DNA from: Verrucomicrobiota bacterium
GTDB lineage: Bacteria; Verrucomicrobiota; Verrucomicrobiia; Opitutales; LL51
Assembly (NCBI GenBank): GCA_021294815.2
Contig: CP095464.1
Location: 420,001 to 452,000, forward strand
Direction: 5' to 3'
DNA: 32,000 nucleotides
Shown: in pieces, positions 1,844 through 18,491 of the stretch
Layout of the letters: the number at the start of each line of letters is the position of its first letter
Position numbering within the stretch: position 1 is the stretch's first letter
Notes under the pieces: generated by a model
Databases searched by the model: none
The model's input: the letters and a program-made list of their open reading frames with translations, nothing else
What the model was told of the DNA's origin: nothing
Made by a program: the position numbers and the translations under genes

Positions 1844-1871
1844 AGCATAACATTTTTACATATTTTGTAAA
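1844..1871 (-). promoter_or_regulatory. Sigma-70-type promoter predicting a leaderless CC-1 mRNA
   Basis: Minus strand reads TTTACA-16 nt-TATGCT-TACTCC-ATG. The -10 ends 6 nt before the start codon. Confidence 0.6.
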
Positions 1872-1966
1872 TAAATTATTTAAACTCTAGCGGCATTTAT
1901 TGATAAAATTTTCAACAACTTACATACAGAAATTGCTCTTGCTGGGGACTGCCAGGCCCCCAATAA

Positions 1967-2773
1967 TCACTTCTCCTGGGCTTCCTTTGCCTCCTTAATT
2001 GCCAAATCGAGAGCCTGCAATTTTGTCCTTAAGAGCATTTCTTCTGTATTTTTAGATGTATCTAATCCGCCCCAGTACTTCGACTGAACCTGCCCATCGG
2101 CGTCGTAAAACTCTTTAAACTGCTTCTCCACTTCCTGTTGAAGTTTTTGCACGTTATCGGCGTTGGATTGGACTGCCTCTTTAAAATTCTCGATAGACTC
2201 CTTCAATTTTGCACTCGCAATACCCGCTTTTACAAACTTTCCCGCCATCGCGGTGTAATATTTTTCAAACAATTGAGTAACTTCACCGTGGTGTGCTTCC
2301 AGCTCCCGCCTCTTTTGCCGGTCTTTTATGCCTTTGATGGCCTCGGAATAAGAGTCCAACTGAGACTTGAAGTCGCTCCGATTGGTCTCATAGGGCGCCT
2401 TGTAGGCATCTACTTTTTCCTGATAGGGACTGATCTTCGCCTGATACTCCTCAGCTTTTGCCCTGTATGGTGCCATTTTTTGCTCGAGATTCTGATATTC
2501 GATTTTCTGCTGGTGCTTTGTGCTCTTCGCCTTGTGATACTGCTGTGCAGAAAACTTCAGGGCCTTCTTTCCTTCGTCTACATCAAATCCCTGAATATTG
2601 GCGTATTTTATGATCTTGGCTTTGGTCGCCCTGTAGTCTTCCGAGTTCGTTAAGCTCCCCCAGACTTGCTTCACAAAGTTACCAAAAATTGTTCCACCCT
2701 GCCGCTCTGTGCGGAACTTCGCCGCTTCCCATGCAGTAATGCCGTAGCTAGATCCATTAATATCGATTTTCAT
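1967..2773 (-). CDS. Coiled-coil family protein CC-2 (hypothetical)
   Basis: N-terminus MKIDINGSSYGITAWEAAKF and box GKKALKFSAQQY match the paralogs. The rest is K/E/Q-rich coiled-coil-like sequence. Confidence 0.85.
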   Translation of the reverse strand: MKIDINGSSYGITAWEAAKFRTERQGGTIFGNFVKQVWGSLTNSEDYRATKAKIIKYANIQGFDVDEGKKALKFSAQQYHKAKSTKHQQKIEYQNLEQKMAPYRAKAEEYQAKISPYQEKVDAYKAPYETNRSDFKSQLDSYSEAIKGIKDRQKRRELEAHHGEVTQLFEKYYTAMAGKFVKAGIASAKLKESIENFKEAVQSNADNVQKLQQEVEKQFKEFYDADGQVQSKYWGGLDTSKNTEEMLLRTKLQALDLAIKEAKEAQEK

Positions 2774-2794
2774 AGTAAATTCCCCAATTGAAAG

Positions 2795-2823
2795 TGCATA
2801 GTCTCCGGAAACAATTATTGAAA
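2795..2823 (-). promoter_or_regulatory. Possible internal promoter for CC-2
   Basis: Minus strand reads TTTCAA-17 nt-TATGCA, then 21 nt containing GGGGA, then ATG. It is weaker than the family promoters and does not follow the leaderless geometry. Confidence 0.3.
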
Positions 2824-2833
2824 TTCCTGGACG

Positions 2834-4219
2834 CTAACCTACTTGATAACCAAAACAAAATCTCCCTTTGCTGCGCTCGAGAAAATCTCGGATTTTTTTA
2901 GCGACTTCAGGATTATCCTTGCTGATATTTTCTACCAAATCATCAAGACTCCTTTCCCTGGCGTTAAGGGATTTGCGGACGTCGTCAGTCGCTTTTTGCA
3001 ACCGGCTTGCGAGCCCACTAAATGCAGAATTATCATTATTTTTGGAAGGATCTCGCAAATGCGACTTCTCCTCGGGAATTGTCCCTTCAGAATCCACAAA
3101 CTCTTGAAACGCTATAAGGTTATTTTGCAGGTCAATTTTGCTATCGCTACCACCCTTGCCATTTAAAAAATTCTCAGCTTGCTTTATGTTTTCCTTGAGA
3201 TTGTCATATGGTTGCAGTTGCTCCTCCACCTGGAGGTAGAGTTGTTCTATTTTATTACGAATCCGGTTAATTTTTTGGATATGCGGATTACTGGCATCGT
3301 TTTTCCATTCTTTCGGAATATACGTTTGCATGGTATCGAGAAGTCTTTTCCTTCCATCACACATTGTTTTAATCTTCGAGCGACAGGTCTCTATACAGCC
3401 ACCGTAAGCTTTGCACTCTGTTTTAGCTCTTGGTAGCGTTGCTTGCAGCTCTTCCGCGCGCTTCTTAAAATCGTTGAGTGTATTTTGGAGGGCCGTAGCT
3501 TCATCGTCTAAATCTGTTATTATGCTATGATCTTCTTCAACGCCGAGTTTTTTGTCCATCGTGCTAATAATCCAGTTAAACCCTTTATTGATCGTGTCAT
3601 TTTCCTGTTTAAATTTGGATAATTCTTGATTCTTTAGCGCCATCGAGGCATCGACATTTTCTTGGAAAAAACGACAATTTTTGCGGACTGTTTCAATCGA
3701 AGTCATCTGTTCATCGAGTTTTTTCTGAATGGCGTCGCGCTGATCGATTATGCTTTTGAGCACAGTTATTCCTTGGGAATGAAGATTACTAATGGCGTCG
3801 TTAAGGGACTTAAGCTGATTGGAAAGTCTTGCACATGTCGCTTGGCGGCTCTCTGAGCGCTTATCGATTTCAACAACTGAGCCTCGAATTGCCTGCCAAG
3901 AAGAACGCATGGAATTGATCTCATTCCGCTCTTGCTGACGGTCCGTCCGAGCAGCGAGTAACTGATTTTTGACGAATTTTAATTTTCCCTTTTTGACTAC
4001 GAACGCGCCTCTCTTGACATAATCTTCCAAAAGGGGTTTCAGCCCTTCTTGATAGCCGGACTTATCGTTGATGATTTTTTTAGCGATTCCGCTCTGCCTG
4101 ACCGCGTCCAAGAAGCCCGCTTTTGACTTACCATCTATCATCGCCTTCTCCGAGGCCAGGAGCTTCGAAAGTTCCCACTGGCTGATGCGGCAGCTTGCTC
4201 CATTGATGTTGATGTCCAT
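2834..4219 (-). CDS. Coiled-coil family protein CC-3 (hypothetical)
   Basis: N-terminus MDININGASCRISQWELSKLL and box KGKLKFVKNQL. 461 aa, heptad-rich. It lies 40 nt downstream of CC-4 with no promoter-like hexamers, so it is probably co-transcribed. Confidence 0.85.
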   Translation of the reverse strand: MDININGASCRISQWELSKLLASEKAMIDGKSKAGFLDAVRQSGIAKKIINDKSGYQEGLKPLLEDYVKRGAFVVKKGKLKFVKNQLLAARTDRQQERNEINSMRSSWQAIRGSVVEIDKRSESRQATCARLSNQLKSLNDAISNLHSQGITVLKSIIDQRDAIQKKLDEQMTSIETVRKNCRFFQENVDASMALKNQELSKFKQENDTINKGFNWIISTMDKKLGVEEDHSIITDLDDEATALQNTLNDFKKRAEELQATLPRAKTECKAYGGCIETCRSKIKTMCDGRKRLLDTMQTYIPKEWKNDASNPHIQKINRIRNKIEQLYLQVEEQLQPYDNLKENIKQAENFLNGKGGSDSKIDLQNNLIAFQEFVDSEGTIPEEKSHLRDPSKNNDNSAFSGLASRLQKATDDVRKSLNARERSLDDLVENISKDNPEVAKKIRDFLERSKGRFCFGYQVG

Positions 4220-4259
4220 ATTAAAGTGAATCTGAAATTTGAATGTTTGTTCCGTCCCA

Positions 4260-17053: not shown

Positions 17054-17059
17054 AAGTTG

Positions 17060-17087
17060 AGTATAAATTTACAGAGAGATTTGTAAA
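17060..17087 (-). promoter_or_regulatory. Sigma-70-type promoter predicting a leaderless CC-11 mRNA
   Basis: Minus strand reads TTTACA-16 nt-TATACT-CAACTT-ATG. The -35 ends a T14 tract preceded by CCTGTAAAGCG. Confidence 0.6.
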
Positions 17088-17098
17088 AAAAAAAAAAA
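17085..17098 (-). repeat. Homopolymer tract (T14 on coding strand) fused to the -35
   Basis: Plus-strand A14 run. Confidence 0.9.
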
Positions 17099-17241
17099 CG
17101 CTTTACAGGTAAATTTTATAATTTCTCGCTGGTAAACTCAAACGTCGAGCCGAAAATTAAACACATCACCCCAACGGCAAAGGTCTGATATTCGCATATG
17201 AGCCAAATCTAACCAACTCTCTCAAACAAAAGCTAGCTTGT

Positions 17242-18456
17242 TTACATCTTAATCGACGATGTAACCTGCAATACACTTGTAATGACACTTAATGCGAGAA
17301 TCGCGACGCCGACAAAGGCACAGCCCATGGCGATGGCCGTGACCGCGCTCGACATCATGTTGAGGTCGTTGATGAGGTCTCCGTGGTATTTTTTATAGAC
17401 ACTTTTTAGAGAACCAGCAAGATCTCCCGTGTTTTCTCCCATCGAAAGAAGATCAAGCGCAAGGTCGGGCATCACGCCGTAGGTCTCAAACGCTTGCGTC
17501 ATTGAGGCCCCGTTCATCACCGCTTCCTTCGCTTCGATAAAACGTTGCCGAAAATAGCGGTTCGCAGATGCATTCTTCGCCAGCTCCATCGCCTCTGTCG
17601 TGTTGATCCCACTACCTAAAAGCGTCGCCAGTAGATTCGAGGTCTGACAGTAAAAGTTCTCTTTGATAATCATGCCTACAATCGGTATCCGTAATACCCA
17701 GTGGTCCAGATTGTAGCGCCCCTTTGGCGTGTTCCGATAGGCTAACGTTACGCCAATAATACCCAGAATCGATAGGAGAATCGCCCACCAGTATTGCCCC
17801 GCTACCTTCGATGCGTCAATGAGGTATTTCGTCATCTGCGGTAGGTCGCCTCCAAGCGATTTGAGCATGCTCTCAAGCTTCGGCATGATGAAAATAAGAA
17901 AGACTAACCCAACAACAATTCCAACCGTACAGACCGTCGCCGGATATGCCATCCCGGAAATGAACTTCTTCTTCAACTGCTCCTTCGTCTCTAGAAATTC
18001 AATCAAATTCGTAATCACAGAAATGAGATTGCCCGTCTTTTCTCCCGCTTCTACCATGCAAACCGTGTTCTCGTTGAAAATGTCTGGAAAGTTCCGCATC
18101 GCTTGCGCAATCGTCTTCCCTTCACATACGTCTTTGTGAATCGTTTCCGCTAAAACCTGCTCCTGCGGGTCCTTTAAACGCTTCCGCATCGTCCGTATCG
18201 CATCCCCAATCGGAAGCCCTCCGCCGTGTAATTGTAAAAACTTTTGAAGAAAACTGAGCGCAATCTTACTCTTGCTCTTCTGAAAAAGCTGAAACTTAAA
18301 CGAGCTCTTCGTAGTCCCGGTGTCTTCCGCAATCGCGGAAACCCGTATGCCACGGCCTTGTAGGCTGAGAATCGCTGACTTTCGATCCGCTGCCTCGACC
18401 GTCCCTGACGTTGTACGCCCTGTCGCCCCGTCCGTTCCTTTGTAGGAAAATTTCAC
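17242..18456 (-). CDS. gspF: Type II secretion / type IV pilus platform protein, GspF/PilC family
   Basis: 404 aa with the duplicated T2SS-F architecture: a soluble N-domain, then a TM segment (PATVCTVGIVVGLVFLIFIMP), a second cytoplasmic domain and two further TM segments. Typical motifs include LLGSGINTTEAMELA. GTG start. GspF and PilC cannot be told apart from sequence alone. Confidence 0.85.
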   Translation of the reverse strand: MKFSYKGTDGATGRTTSGTVEAADRKSAILSLQGRGIRVSAIAEDTGTTKSSFKFQLFQKSKSKIALSFLQKFLQLHGGGLPIGDAIRTMRKRLKDPQEQVLAETIHKDVCEGKTIAQAMRNFPDIFNENTVCMVEAGEKTGNLISVITNLIEFLETKEQLKKKFISGMAYPATVCTVGIVVGLVFLIFIMPKLESMLKSLGGDLPQMTKYLIDASKVAGQYWWAILLSILGIIGVTLAYRNTPKGRYNLDHWVLRIPIVGMIIKENFYCQTSNLLATLLGSGINTTEAMELAKNASANRYFRQRFIEAKEAVMNGASMTQAFETYGVMPDLALDLLSMGENTGDLAGSLKSVYKKYHGDLINDLNMMSSAVTAIAMGCAFVGVAILALSVITSVLQVTSSIKM

Positions 18457-18463
18457 AGGGCTG

Positions 18464-18491
18464 ATTGTATCAAATCACCCCCGTATGGCAA
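18464..18491 (-). promoter_or_regulatory. Promoter candidate for gspF, also near-leaderless
   Basis: Minus strand reads TTGCCA-16 nt-TACAAT-CAGCCCT-GTG. The -10 ends 7 nt before the start codon. Confidence 0.45.

What the first reader, a model, noticed from the sequence alone, without database searches (positions are those of the whole stretch)
1844..18491. Seven family promoters share one rigid geometry, TTTACA-N16-TAYRCT-N6-start codon, predicting leaderless mRNAs
**Seen in sequence**
- The minus strand reads as follows upstream of each unit:

| Unit | -35 | spacer | -10 | gap to start | start |
|---|---|---|---|---|---|
| CC-1 | TTTACA | 16 nt | TATGCT | TACTCC | ATG |
| CC-4 | TTTACA | 16 nt | TATACT | CGCAAT | ATG |
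| CC-5 | TTTACA | 16 nt | TACACT | GGATGT | ATG |
| CC-6 | TTTACA | 16 nt | TATGCT | TTAATC | GTG |
| CC-7 | TTTACA | 16 nt | TATACT | TCAAAT | ATG |
| CC-8 | TTTACA | 16 nt | TATACT | GGGTCC | ATG |
| CC-11 | TTTACA | 16 nt | TATACT | CAACTT | ATG |

- The -35 hexamer, the 16-nt spacer and the 6-nt gap to the start codon are identical in all seven, while the spacer and gap sequences differ.
- gspF itself shows TTGCCA-16-TACAAT-7 nt-GTG.

**Inference**
- A transcript starting 6-7 nt after the -10 would begin at or within a base of the start codon, leaving no 5' UTR and no Shine-Dalgarno.
- This geometry moves the CC-6 start from the tracked TTG 7915 to GTG 7894.
- CC-3 and CC-2 lack such promoters and are probably co-transcribed with CC-4.
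- CC-10 is the exception, with a leader of about 50 nt.
- In the decayed CC-9 the geometry persists but both hexamers have degenerated.
Basis: partly seen in the sequence, partly recalled or inferred. Interest (0 to 1): 0.72.

Follow-up and report, generated by a model that had tools for sequence, protein, structure and literature searches.

The report
Leaderless promoters on a duplicated gene family
A tandem family of orphan coiled-coil genes in a small-genome gut Verrucomicrobia bacterium carries copies of one strong promoter, placed so that transcription should begin on the start codon; this leaderless layout is well known, but it is unusually cleanly preserved here.

Summary
TTTACA-N16-TAYRCT occurs 7 times in the window, all on the minus strand and all 6 nt before an ATG/GTG that opens a family ORF; 0 were expected.

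Sister-strain contigs raise this to 19 family promoters:
- TTTACA and the 16-nt spacer are present in 19/19.
- The -10 is TAnnnT.
- The gap to the start codon is 6 nt (16 cases) or 7 nt (3 cases).
- Position -1 is a pyrimidine in 18/19 and +1 a purine in 19/19.

The discriminator and most of the spacer have randomised, and the proteins are only about 20% identical. The layout is therefore inherited by segmental duplication (leftover gspF 3' ends mark the duplicons) and then held by selection.

Start codons are supported by N-terminal homology, including GTG 7894. Family genes lacking the promoter mostly carry Shine-Dalgarno-like motifs instead.

The best reading is sigma-70-type promoters making leaderless mRNAs. 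No 5'-end data were available.

The exact hexamers are family-specific. The leaderless layout also occurs at gspF and at a few other orphan genes in relatives, but at none of the other 19 gene starts scored.

Leaderless transcription with this geometry is well known and has been measured in Akkermansia, so this is a new member of a known kind.

Variable poly-T tracts (7-19 T) abutting the -35 and strain-variable arrays are the more intriguing extras.

The parts
1844..1871 (-). CC-1 promoter TTTACA-16-TATGCT. It lies 6 nt before ATG 1837 (CDS 881-1837).
5727..5754 (-). CC-4 promoter TTTACA-16-TATACT with an extended -10 TGn. It lies 6 nt before ATG 5720 (CDS 4260-5720).
1967..4219 (-). CC-3 (2834-4219) and CC-2 (1967-2773). 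Both are family genes without the promoter, sitting 40 and 60 nt behind the preceding gene. CC-2 has GGGGA 7 nt before its ATG; CC-3 has no Shine-Dalgarno-like motif.
7115..7142 (-). CC-5 promoter TTTACA-16-TACACT. It lies 6 nt before ATG 7108 (CDS 5915-7108).
7901..7928 (-). CC-6 promoter TTTACA-16-TATGCT. It lies 6 nt before GTG 7894 (CDS 7169-7894). TTG 7915 lies inside the spacer and is therefore not the start. A T7 tract spans 7926-7932.
   Evidence: P0002 starts MDFKVNG
9392..9427 (-). CC-7 promoter TTTACA-16-TATACT plus a T11 tract. It lies 6 nt before ATG 9385. The gene (8470-9385) is split by a +1 frameshift in an A5 run near 9083-9087.
11990..12040 (-). CC-8 promoter TTTACA-16-TATACT, a T15 tract (12015-12029) and the upstream box CCTGTAAAGCG. 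It lies 6 nt before ATG 11983 (CDS 9710-11983).
12904..13020 (-). CC-9 remnant with a degenerate promoter TTTAAA-16-TAACTC-5-ATG (ATG 12987-12985). The 27-codon ORF MSFKLESGGKVSAWETAKF... ends at a premature stop.
13467..15362 (-). CC-10 (CDS 13467-15278). It is leadered, with a candidate promoter TTGCAA-16-TATTCA at 15362-15335, a leader of about 50 nt, and GGGAG 9 nt before the ATG.
17060..17109 (-). CC-11 promoter TTTACA-16-TATACT, a T14 tract (17085-17098) and the upstream box CCTGTAAAGCG. It lies 6 nt before ATG 17053 (CDS 15932-17053).
18464..18491 (-). gspF promoter TTGCCA-16-TACAAT with an extended -10 TGn. It lies 7 nt before GTG 18456 (CDS 17242-18456). The same layout is present in strain L001.
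12168..12304 (-). Leftover copy of the gspF 3' end, upstream of CC-8 (a duplication scar).
13188..13324 (-). Leftover copy of the gspF 3' end, upstream of CC-9.
15624..15760 (-). Leftover copy of the gspF 3' end, upstream of CC-10; 89% identical to the real 3' end at 17243-17379.

Best explanation
The seven elements are copies of one ancestral, strong sigma-70-type promoter.

- **Anatomy.** Each copy has an AT-rich or poly-T upstream region, a -35 TTTACA, a 16-nt spacer (half of the first ten copies with an extended -10 TGn) and a -10 TAYRCT.
- **Origin (shown by sequence).** The promoter was carried along each time a [gspF 3' end - intergenic - promoter - gene] segment was tandemly duplicated.
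- **Transcription start (inferred).** RNA polymerase normally starts about 7 nt after the -10 at a pyrimidine/purine step, so transcription should begin on the A (or G) of the start codon. That gives mRNAs with no 5' UTR and no Shine-Dalgarno sequence.
- **Translation (inferred).** These mRNAs would be translated by direct recognition of the 5'-terminal AUG/GUG.
- **Why the geometry is rigid (inferred).** Any insertion or deletion between the -10 and the ATG would either behead the start codon or add an untranslatable leader. Selection therefore freezes the distance while letting the intervening bases drift.
- **Other family genes.** Those not directly behind such a promoter (CC-2, CC-3, CC-10) are expressed from leadered or polycistronic mRNAs.

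The duplication history, the conservation pattern and the start codons are shown by sequence. The transcription start and the translation mode are inferred.
For: - **Occurrence.** There are 7 of 7 hits against 0 expected, each exactly 6 nt from a start codon.
- **Wider sample.** 19 family promoters on 5 contigs from at least 4 samples keep TTTACA and the 16-nt spacer invariant, have a TAnnnT -10 and a gap of 6 (16 cases) or 7 (3 cases).
- **Information content (first 10 copies).** It is 2 bits at -34..-29, -12, -11, -8 and -7 and at the T and G of the start codon (1.5 bits at +1, where one copy has G). It is 0.03-0.64 bits at -6..-1.
- **Age of the copies.** Paralogous proteins are only 12-33% identical in the N-terminal domain (one inter-strain pair reaches 48%), so the copies are old.
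- **Start-site dinucleotide.** Y at -1 in 18/19 and R at +1 in 19/19. This matches the YR rule and the about 10% leaderless transcription starts measured in Akkermansia muciniphila, which belongs to the same phylum (PMC4782308).
- **Match to the known signature.** The geometry equals the published leaderless signature, a Pribnow box 6-8 nt from the gene start (PMC6028130).
- **Start codons.** The family motif M-x-[FI]-x-[IVL]-[NE]-G...W-x-x-A-K starts at residue 1-3. The AlphaFold2 model puts a beta-hairpin at residues 3-10. The annotated protein P0002 starts at GTG 7894. In L009 the geometry picks the second ATG, giving MDIPVN..., which fits the family better than the called MSYMDIPVN.
- **Contrast genes.** Promoter-less family genes mostly have Shine-Dalgarno-like motifs.
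- **Specificity.** Only 10 of 1563 ATG/GTG codons in the window have such a promoter, and 8 of those are gene starts.
- **Duplication scars.** gspF 3'-end fragments sit upstream of CC-8, CC-9 and CC-10.
Against: - There are no transcriptome, 5'-end or proteomic data, so the start site is inferred from E. coli-type rules.
- Verrucomicrobia are reported to be Shine-Dalgarno-poor anyway (PMC10783764). Absence of a Shine-Dalgarno motif is therefore weak evidence on its own.
- All units are co-directional and few terminators were detected between them. Read-through transcripts that contain these sites internally probably also exist.
- The first 40 nt of the predicted mRNAs are not less structured than internal 40-nt windows.
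- The GTG start of CC-6 would be a poor leaderless start by E. coli standards (my own knowledge).
- Several of the 19 promoters are orthologues, so they are not 19 independent observations.
Confidence: 0.8

Rival explanations
1. The geometry is simply the organism's general promoter style, and not a signature of this family or locus.
For: - gspF has TTGCCA-16-TACAAT-7-GTG in both the window and L001.
- In relatives L009 and L012, non-family orphan genes show TTGAAA-16-TAAAAT-8-ATG, TTGTGA-17-TAAAAT-6-ATG and TTGCTA-16-TATCAT-7-ATG.
- About 10% of Akkermansia transcription starts are leaderless.
Against: - Of the 20 non-family gene starts scored in the window and L002, only gspF qualifies. sufC, sufB, dnaK, groES, groEL and the MgtE_N-repeat genes do not.
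- In L002, 0 of 9 promoter-plus-start hits fall on a gene start.
- The T at -35 position 3 (19/19) and TTTACAAA are confined to the family. Non-family promoters have TTG.
- Only about 95 kb of this lineage could be examined.
Confidence: 0.25
2. The conserved block lies inside a longer 5' UTR or a polycistronic mRNA. In a Shine-Dalgarno-poor bacterium it would act as an AT-rich, unstructured translation-initiation region or as a regulator-binding site, and not as the promoter.
For: - The phylum is reported to be Shine-Dalgarno-poor.
- The genes are co-directional with few terminators between them.
- TGTAAA/TTTACA inverted repeats flank several -35 boxes, and the conserved box CCTGTAARGCG lies upstream in most long-T-tract copies. 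Either could be a protein-binding site.
Against: - A translation enhancer would not need two hexamers that match sigma-70 at 9-11 of 12 positions with an invariant 16-nt spacing in 19/19 copies.
- A -35-like element 28-34 nt upstream has no known role in translation.
- The Y-1/R+1 signal sits exactly at the start codon.
- Leadered family members use Shine-Dalgarno-like motifs, so Shine-Dalgarno-type initiation appears to be used in these genomes.
Confidence: 0.07
3. The identity of the seven promoters reflects recent duplication or gene conversion only, with no selection on the geometry.
For: - The units are segmental duplicates.
- Mosaic genes exist: L001-b combines a foreign N-terminus with a CC-8 body.
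- Some spacer positions (-19..-16) are moderately conserved.
Against: - The coding sequence immediately downstream has diverged to about 20% protein identity.
- The discriminator is randomised.
- Insertions and deletions are common just upstream, where T tracts range from 3 to 19.
- Despite this, no indel has occurred in the 34 nt from the -35 to the ATG in 16 of 19 copies, and the other three differ by 1 nt.
- The one copy with damaged hexamers and a 1-nt loss (CC-9) is also the one with a premature stop.
Confidence: 0.05

Closest known systems
Bacterial leaderless genes (GeneMarkS-2 'group C' pattern; Actinobacteria, Deinococcus-Thermus)
   Same: A Pribnow box lies 6-8 nt upstream of the start codon of first-in-operon genes, with no Shine-Dalgarno motif. 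Internal genes keep ribosome-binding sites (PMC6028130). All of these features are seen here.
   Different: - The lineage is Verrucomicrobia/Opitutales.
- In the roughly 95 kb examined, the pattern is concentrated on one orphan paralogue family plus a few other accessory genes, whereas group C genomes use it for 25-50% of operons.
- A near-consensus -35 with a fixed 16-nt spacer is retained. To my knowledge many actinobacterial leaderless promoters lack a clear -35.
Leaderless transcription starts in Akkermansia muciniphila mapped by Cappable-seq
   Same: Same phylum. About 10% of transcription starts coincide with annotated start codons. -35 and TATAAT-like boxes and a YR step at -1/+1 are present (PMC4782308).
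   Different: That result is experimental and genome-wide. This one is a prediction for a different order, with a reduced genome of about 0.88 Mb and a single gene family.
Promoter homopolymer-tract contingency loci (Bordetella fim poly-C, Mycoplasma hyorhinis vlp poly-A, Neisseria porA/opc); recalled from my own knowledge and not tested here
   Same: - A multigene family of variable proteins, each gene with its own conserved promoter carrying a long homopolymer tract.
- The only homopolymers of 9 nt or more in the 32-kb window are three promoter T tracts.
- Tract length differs between paralogues and between the orthologues CC-11 (14 T) and L010-2349 (16 T).
   Different: - Here the tract lies upstream of, and merges into, the -35, and the -35/-10 spacer is constant at 16 nt. 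Slippage would therefore not change the core promoter spacing.
- No within-population length variation has been shown.
Classical E. coli leaderless mRNAs (lambda cI from PRM, Tn1721 tetR); recalled from my own knowledge
   Same: Transcription starts on the A of the AUG, and translation needs the 5'-terminal AUG.
   Different: Those are isolated regulatory genes. This is a whole tandem family with a conserved cassette.

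Membership tests
Bacterial leaderless (5'-UTR-less) genes | A -10 (Pribnow) box ends 6-8 nt upstream of the start codon | tested here: met
   The gap is 6 nt in 7/7 window copies. Across the 19 family promoters it is 6 nt in 16 and 7 nt in 3.
Bacterial leaderless (5'-UTR-less) genes | The annotated start codon is the true translation start | tested here: met
   - The N-terminal family motif begins at residue 1-3 in all paralogues.
- No earlier in-frame start exists for 6 of 7.
- The deposited protein P0002 starts at GTG 7894.

This is computational support only; there are no N-terminal peptides.
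Bacterial leaderless (5'-UTR-less) genes | No Shine-Dalgarno motif, while leadered genes of the same genome can have one | tested here: met
   - The 12 nt before the start are the -10 box plus a random discriminator.
- CC-2, CC-10, dnaK, L009-5964 and L010-1747 have GGGGA/GGGAG/AAGGA/GAGGAA/AGGAGG at 6-9 nt.
- CC-3, groES and groEL have none, so the contrast is imperfect.
Bacterial leaderless (5'-UTR-less) genes | A preferred initiating dinucleotide (pyrimidine at -1, purine at +1) sits at the start codon | tested here: met
   18/19 have Y at -1, and 19/19 have A or G at +1. The rule comes from PMC4782308.
Bacterial leaderless (5'-UTR-less) genes | The primary transcript 5' end maps to the first base of the start codon | not testable with these tools
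   No RNA data are available. This needs Cappable-seq, dRNA-seq or 5' RACE.
Sigma-70-type promoter | -35 and -10 hexamers close to TTGACA/TATAAT, separated by 16-18 nt | tested here: met
   The match is 9-11 of 12 positions with a 16-nt spacer in 19/19. An extended -10 TGn is present in 5 of the first 10 copies.
Phase-variable (contingency) promoter | A long homopolymer or short tandem tract within the promoter region | tested here: met
   T tracts of 7, 11, 15 and 14 nt occur in the window, with 9, 19, 14 and 16 nt in other strains. Apart from one T8 run at 5825-5832 (outside any promoter core), these are the only homopolymers of 8 nt or more in the 32 kb.
Phase-variable (contingency) promoter | The tract is positioned so that length changes alter promoter function (between -35 and -10, or between an activator site and the core promoter) | tested here: inconclusive
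   The tract is not between -35 and -10, where the spacer is constant at 16 nt. It does separate the conserved box CCTGTAARGCG from the -35, but that box has no known function.
Phase-variable (contingency) promoter | Tract length varies within a population or between close strains at the same locus | tested here: inconclusive
   - CC-11 (14 T) differs from its orthologue L010-2349 (16 T).
- L010-325 and L012-64 are both 14 T.
- Contigs L011 and L010 end in or at T tracts, which could be technical.
- Read-level data are needed.

The most novel reading that the evidence does not exclude
The array would be a contingency locus of a reduced-genome gut Opitutales bacterium. It would consist of strain-specific, recombining (mosaic) orphan coiled-coil genes, each a minimal self-contained cassette: promoter plus start codon with no ribosome-binding site needed. 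A hypermutable poly-T tract fused to the -35 would switch or tune each gene's expression stochastically. That would make it a phase-variable, leaderless surface or effector family, which as far as I know has not been described in Verrucomicrobia.
Probability: 0.15. Interest if true: 0.65.

Novelty: new member of a known kind. Interest (0 to 1): 0.36.

Why it matters
**Practical use.** The geometry fixes the true start codons of an orphan gene family:
- CC-6 starts at GTG 7894, not TTG 7915.
- The CC-1-like gene in L009 starts at its second ATG.

It also shows that gene callers tuned to Shine-Dalgarno motifs can mis-start genes in these uncultured, small-genome gut Verrucomicrobia.

**Biology.** This is a clean natural experiment. 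After many duplications and near-complete sequence turnover, only two hexamers, their spacing and the distance to the ATG survive. That is what selection on leaderless expression predicts.

**Wider interest.** The family itself may be more interesting than its promoters. It is found in only about 14 proteins among 1.84 billion cluster representatives, has no known fold, varies between strains, and has poly-T tracts at the promoters.

Tried and rejected
- **Exact-protein contig look-ups.** GspF, DnaK, CC-8 and P0013 are not on record, so I could not extend the window's own genome.
- **Metagenome scan.** I searched for the upstream box TTNCCTGTAARGCGTTTTTTT. The three hits were all unrelated chance matches.
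- **Word-indexed protein search.** The N-terminal profile returned one hit, from the L001 contig itself. The exhaustive HMM search was needed to find sister-strain members.
- **Pfam.** No family passed its threshold for any of the nine family proteins scanned.
- **Rfam.** No RNA family was found in the window.
- **Structure.** The AlphaFold2 model of the N-terminal domain has pLDDT 73.6. Foldseek against the PDB found nothing at E <= 0.001; the best hit was E = 3.
- **5' mRNA structure.** I tested whether the predicted 5' ends are less structured than internal segments. There was no difference: -5.15 versus -4.68 kcal/mol, p = 0.83.
- **Terminator idea.** I considered whether box + poly-T is an intrinsic terminator of the upstream gene and rejected it. 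No GC-rich stem precedes the T run, and the terminator scan found none there.
- **gspF promoter homology.** I considered whether the gspF promoter is homologous to the family promoter. There is no convincing alignment, and in L002 the gspF -10 lies about 20 nt from the ATG.
- **Relative L002.** It has no family array after gspF.

Full report
**1. Observation**

The pattern TTTACA-N16-TAYRCT occurs seven times in the 32-kb window. None occurred in 100 dinucleotide-preserving shuffles.

Each -10 ends exactly 6 nt before a start codon: ATG 1837, 5720, 7108, 9385, 11983 or 17053, or GTG 7894. For six of the seven, the codon is also the first possible start of the longest ORF.

gspF has TTGCCA-16-TACAAT-7-GTG.

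I also ran a test that does not presuppose the family hexamers. Every ATG/GTG in the window (1563 codons) was scored for a sigma-70 match of at least 9/12 whose -10 lies 5-8 nt upstream. Only 10 qualify, and 8 of these are real gene starts: the seven family genes plus gspF.

**2. What the genes and the organism are**

The ORFs form a paralogous family:
- The N-terminal domain of about 95 residues is weakly conserved, with motif M-x-[FI]-x-[IVL]-[NE]-G...W-x-x-A-K...K-F-S (12-33% identity among window paralogues).
- It is followed by long coiled-coil or acidic tails.
- None of the nine family proteins scanned passes any Pfam threshold.
- An AlphaFold2 model of the domain (pLDDT 73.6) has no match in the PDB.
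- An exhaustive HMM search of 1.84 billion cluster representatives finds 14 proteins. Six are the window's own, one (P0007) is probably unrelated, and the rest come from sister strains.

The neighbouring genes are RuvC, GspF/PilC, SufCB, DnaK, GroES/EL and DnaB.

The organism is an uncultured Verrucomicrobiota/Opitutales bacterium:
- The deposited protein identical to CC-6 sits on an 878,461-bp contig, so the genome appears strongly reduced.
- This fits the small-genome gut Opitutales lineages described in PMC12306168. I did not verify membership of that particular family.

**3. The promoters are inherited by duplication**

Copies of the last ~137 nt of gspF lie upstream of CC-8, CC-9 and CC-10, at 12168-12304, 13188-13324 and 15624-15760. 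They are 62-89% identical over the 137-nt register. L001 has a similar fragment. The duplication unit was therefore [gspF 3' end - intergenic - promoter - gene].

The array turns over quickly:
- Strain L001 is 94% identical in DNA across sufB-sufC-gspF but has a different set of family genes after gspF.
- One of these genes is a mosaic, combining a foreign N-terminal domain with a CC-8-like body at 68% identity.
- The more distant L002 has no array at all.

**4. The geometry is held by selection**

Contigs from other samples (L001, L009, L010, L012) add 12 family promoters, giving 19 in all:

| Feature | Result |
|---|---|
| -35 TTTACA | 19/19 |
| 16-nt spacer | 19/19 |
| -10 hexamer | TATACT 10, TATGCT 2, TACACT 2, TAAACT 2, TATAAT 2, TAAAAT 1 |
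| Gap to start codon | 6 nt in 16, 7 nt in 3 |

In the first ten copies, information content is maximal at -38/-37, -34 to -29, -12, -11, -8 and -7 and at the T and G of the start codon. It is 0.03-0.64 bits at -6 to -1.

Just upstream, T-tract lengths range from 3 to 19, so insertions and deletions do occur nearby.

The single copy whose hexamers are damaged and which has lost one base (CC-9, TTTAAA-16-TAACTC-5-ATG) is also a pseudogene with a stop at codon 28.

**5. Why leaderless is the best reading**

- **Distance.** With six bases between the -10 and the ATG, the A of the ATG is the seventh base after the -10. That is the canonical start position. It is also the published signature of bacterial leaderless genes, a Pribnow box 6-8 nt from the start (PMC6028130).
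- **Start-site dinucleotide.** Position -1 is C or T in 18/19 and +1 is A or G in 19/19. This matches the YR start-site rule that Cappable-seq found in all species tested. The same study measured about 10% leaderless transcription starts in Akkermansia muciniphila, a member of the same phylum (PMC4782308).
- **Start codons.** The family N-terminal motif begins at residue 1-3. The deposited annotation starts CC-6 at GTG 7894. In L009 the geometry selects the second ATG, giving MDIPVN..., which fits the family better than the called MSYMDIPVN.
- **Contrast genes.** Family genes without the promoter mostly have Shine-Dalgarno-like motifs:

| Gene | Motif before start |
|---|---|
| CC-2 | GGGGA |
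| CC-10 | GGGAG |
| L009-5964 | GAGGAA |
| L010-1747 | AGGAGG |
| CC-3 | none |
| L012-10001 | at most a weak GGTGG |

There are weaknesses. No RNA data exist. Verrucomicrobia are reported to be Shine-Dalgarno-poor in general (PMC10783764). Read-through from upstream units is likely, because few terminators were detected. The predicted 5' ends are not unusually unstructured.

**6. Locus-specific or general?**

The answer is intermediate.
- The exact hexamers (T at -35 position 3, TTTACAAA) are confined to the family.
- Of the 20 non-family gene starts scored in the window and L002, only gspF has a promoter abutting its start.
- In L002, none of the 9 chance-level hits falls on a gene start.
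- In L009 and L012, however, other orphan genes show TTGAAA-16-TAAAAT-8-ATG, TTGTGA-17-TAAAAT-6-ATG and TTGCTA-16-TATCAT-7-ATG.

So leaderless expression looks like a recurrent option for accessory genes in this lineage, and it is not the default. Only about 95 kb could be examined.

**7.

- **CC-6 start moved to GTG 7894:** supported.
- **CC-3 and CC-2 co-transcribed with CC-4:** plausible. The gaps are 40 and 60 nt, there is no promoter and no terminator, and CC-2 has a Shine-Dalgarno-like motif.
- **CC-10 has a leader of about 50 nt:** plausible. TTGCAA-16-TATTCA at 15362-15335 is an 8/12 match.
- **CC-9 geometry 'persists':** only approximately, because one base has been lost.

**8. Comparison, novelty and extras**

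This works like, and passes every sequence-testable criterion for, bacterial leaderless genes driven by sigma-70-type promoters. The one defining feature I could not test is the mapped 5' end. The kind is well known and has been demonstrated experimentally in the phylum, so I rate it a new member of a known kind with moderate-to-low interest.

The less ordinary aspects are peripheral to the finding:
- The poly-T tracts (7-19 T) fused to the -35 include the only homopolymers of 9 nt or more in the window.
- The conserved box CCTGTAARGCG lies upstream of most of these tracts.
- The arrays vary between strains and include a mosaic gene.

Together these leave open a contingency-locus reading, to which I give about 15%.

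Noticed in passing
window 9417-9427, 12015-12029, 17085-17098, 7926-7932 (minus-strand T runs); L001 ~5062-5080 and ~6394-6414; L010 upstream of 325 and 2349: Long poly-T tracts (7, 11, 15 and 14 T; 9, 19, 14 and 16 T in other strains) merge into the -35 TTTACA of one promoter subtype. Most are preceded by the conserved box (A)AATTTnCCTGTAARGCG. Three of them are the only homopolymers of 9 nt or more in the 32-kb window. The orthologues CC-11 and L010-2349 differ (14 versus 16 T).
   Followed up: partly
L011 position 1; L010 3' end (4469); compare window 12018: Two assembly contigs from other samples end inside or at these poly-T tracts. This could reflect read-level length heterogeneity, or just sequencing trouble at homopolymers.
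   Followed up: no
window 12168-12304, 13188-13324, 15624-15760; L001 ~8640-8760: Leftover copies of the gspF 3' end (...VLQVTSSIKM*) precede CC-8, CC-9 and CC-10. They mark the boundaries of the tandem duplication units.
   Followed up: yes
window 8470-9385 (-), around 9083-9087: CC-7 is split into two overlapping ORFs by one extra A in an A5 run (...FDFRK|GKTALKLNK...). Removing one A restores the family consensus. Its promoter is intact. This could be a pseudogene, an assembly error or a slippage site.
   Followed up: partly
L001 5112-9517 versus window 9527-17242: A strain with 94% DNA identity in sufB-sufC-gspF carries a different complement and order of family genes. It includes a mosaic gene: residues 73-661 of L001-b are 68% identical to CC-8, but its N-terminal domain is unrelated to that of CC-8.
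   Followed up: partly
L009 5752-5990: An intact family promoter (TTTACA-16-TATACT-TACTCC-ATG, with the same discriminator as CC-1) opens only a 37-codon ORF. It sits about 180 nt upstream of a leadered family gene that has GAGGAA before its ATG. A decayed unit may therefore have donated its promoter to the next gene.
   Followed up: no
L009 2157, 13626, 17896; L012 6681: Orphan genes outside the family, none with a Pfam hit, also have sigma-70-like promoters 6-8 nt from their ATG. They are a 941-aa coiled-coil protein, a 215/221-aa paralogue pair and a 725-aa protein. Neighbouring housekeeping genes do not have such promoters.
   Followed up: partly
window 162-806 (-); L009 8595-9218: RuvC appears to carry a conserved N-terminal extension of about 50 residues (...C-x-ARSRRG-x-WT-x-AL...EQALREK-x-Q-x-HAF-x-GRILGIDPS). 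It probably starts at a GTG (about 797 in the window) directly after the CC-1 terminator hairpin at 843-817. The gene call on record for L009 (start 8820) cuts off the catalytic ILGIDP motif.
   Followed up: no
window 20670-22127 and 22503-23891 (-): Two adjacent large proteins are built from repeated MgtE_N-like units (LQLF/RLQLF-type repeats). There is no transporter domain, and the function is unknown.
   Followed up: no
all 19 family promoters, position +4: The first base of codon 2 is a purine in all 19 predicted leaderless genes (ATG-R). This may reflect N-terminal residue preferences or a requirement of the initial transcribed sequence.
   Followed up: no
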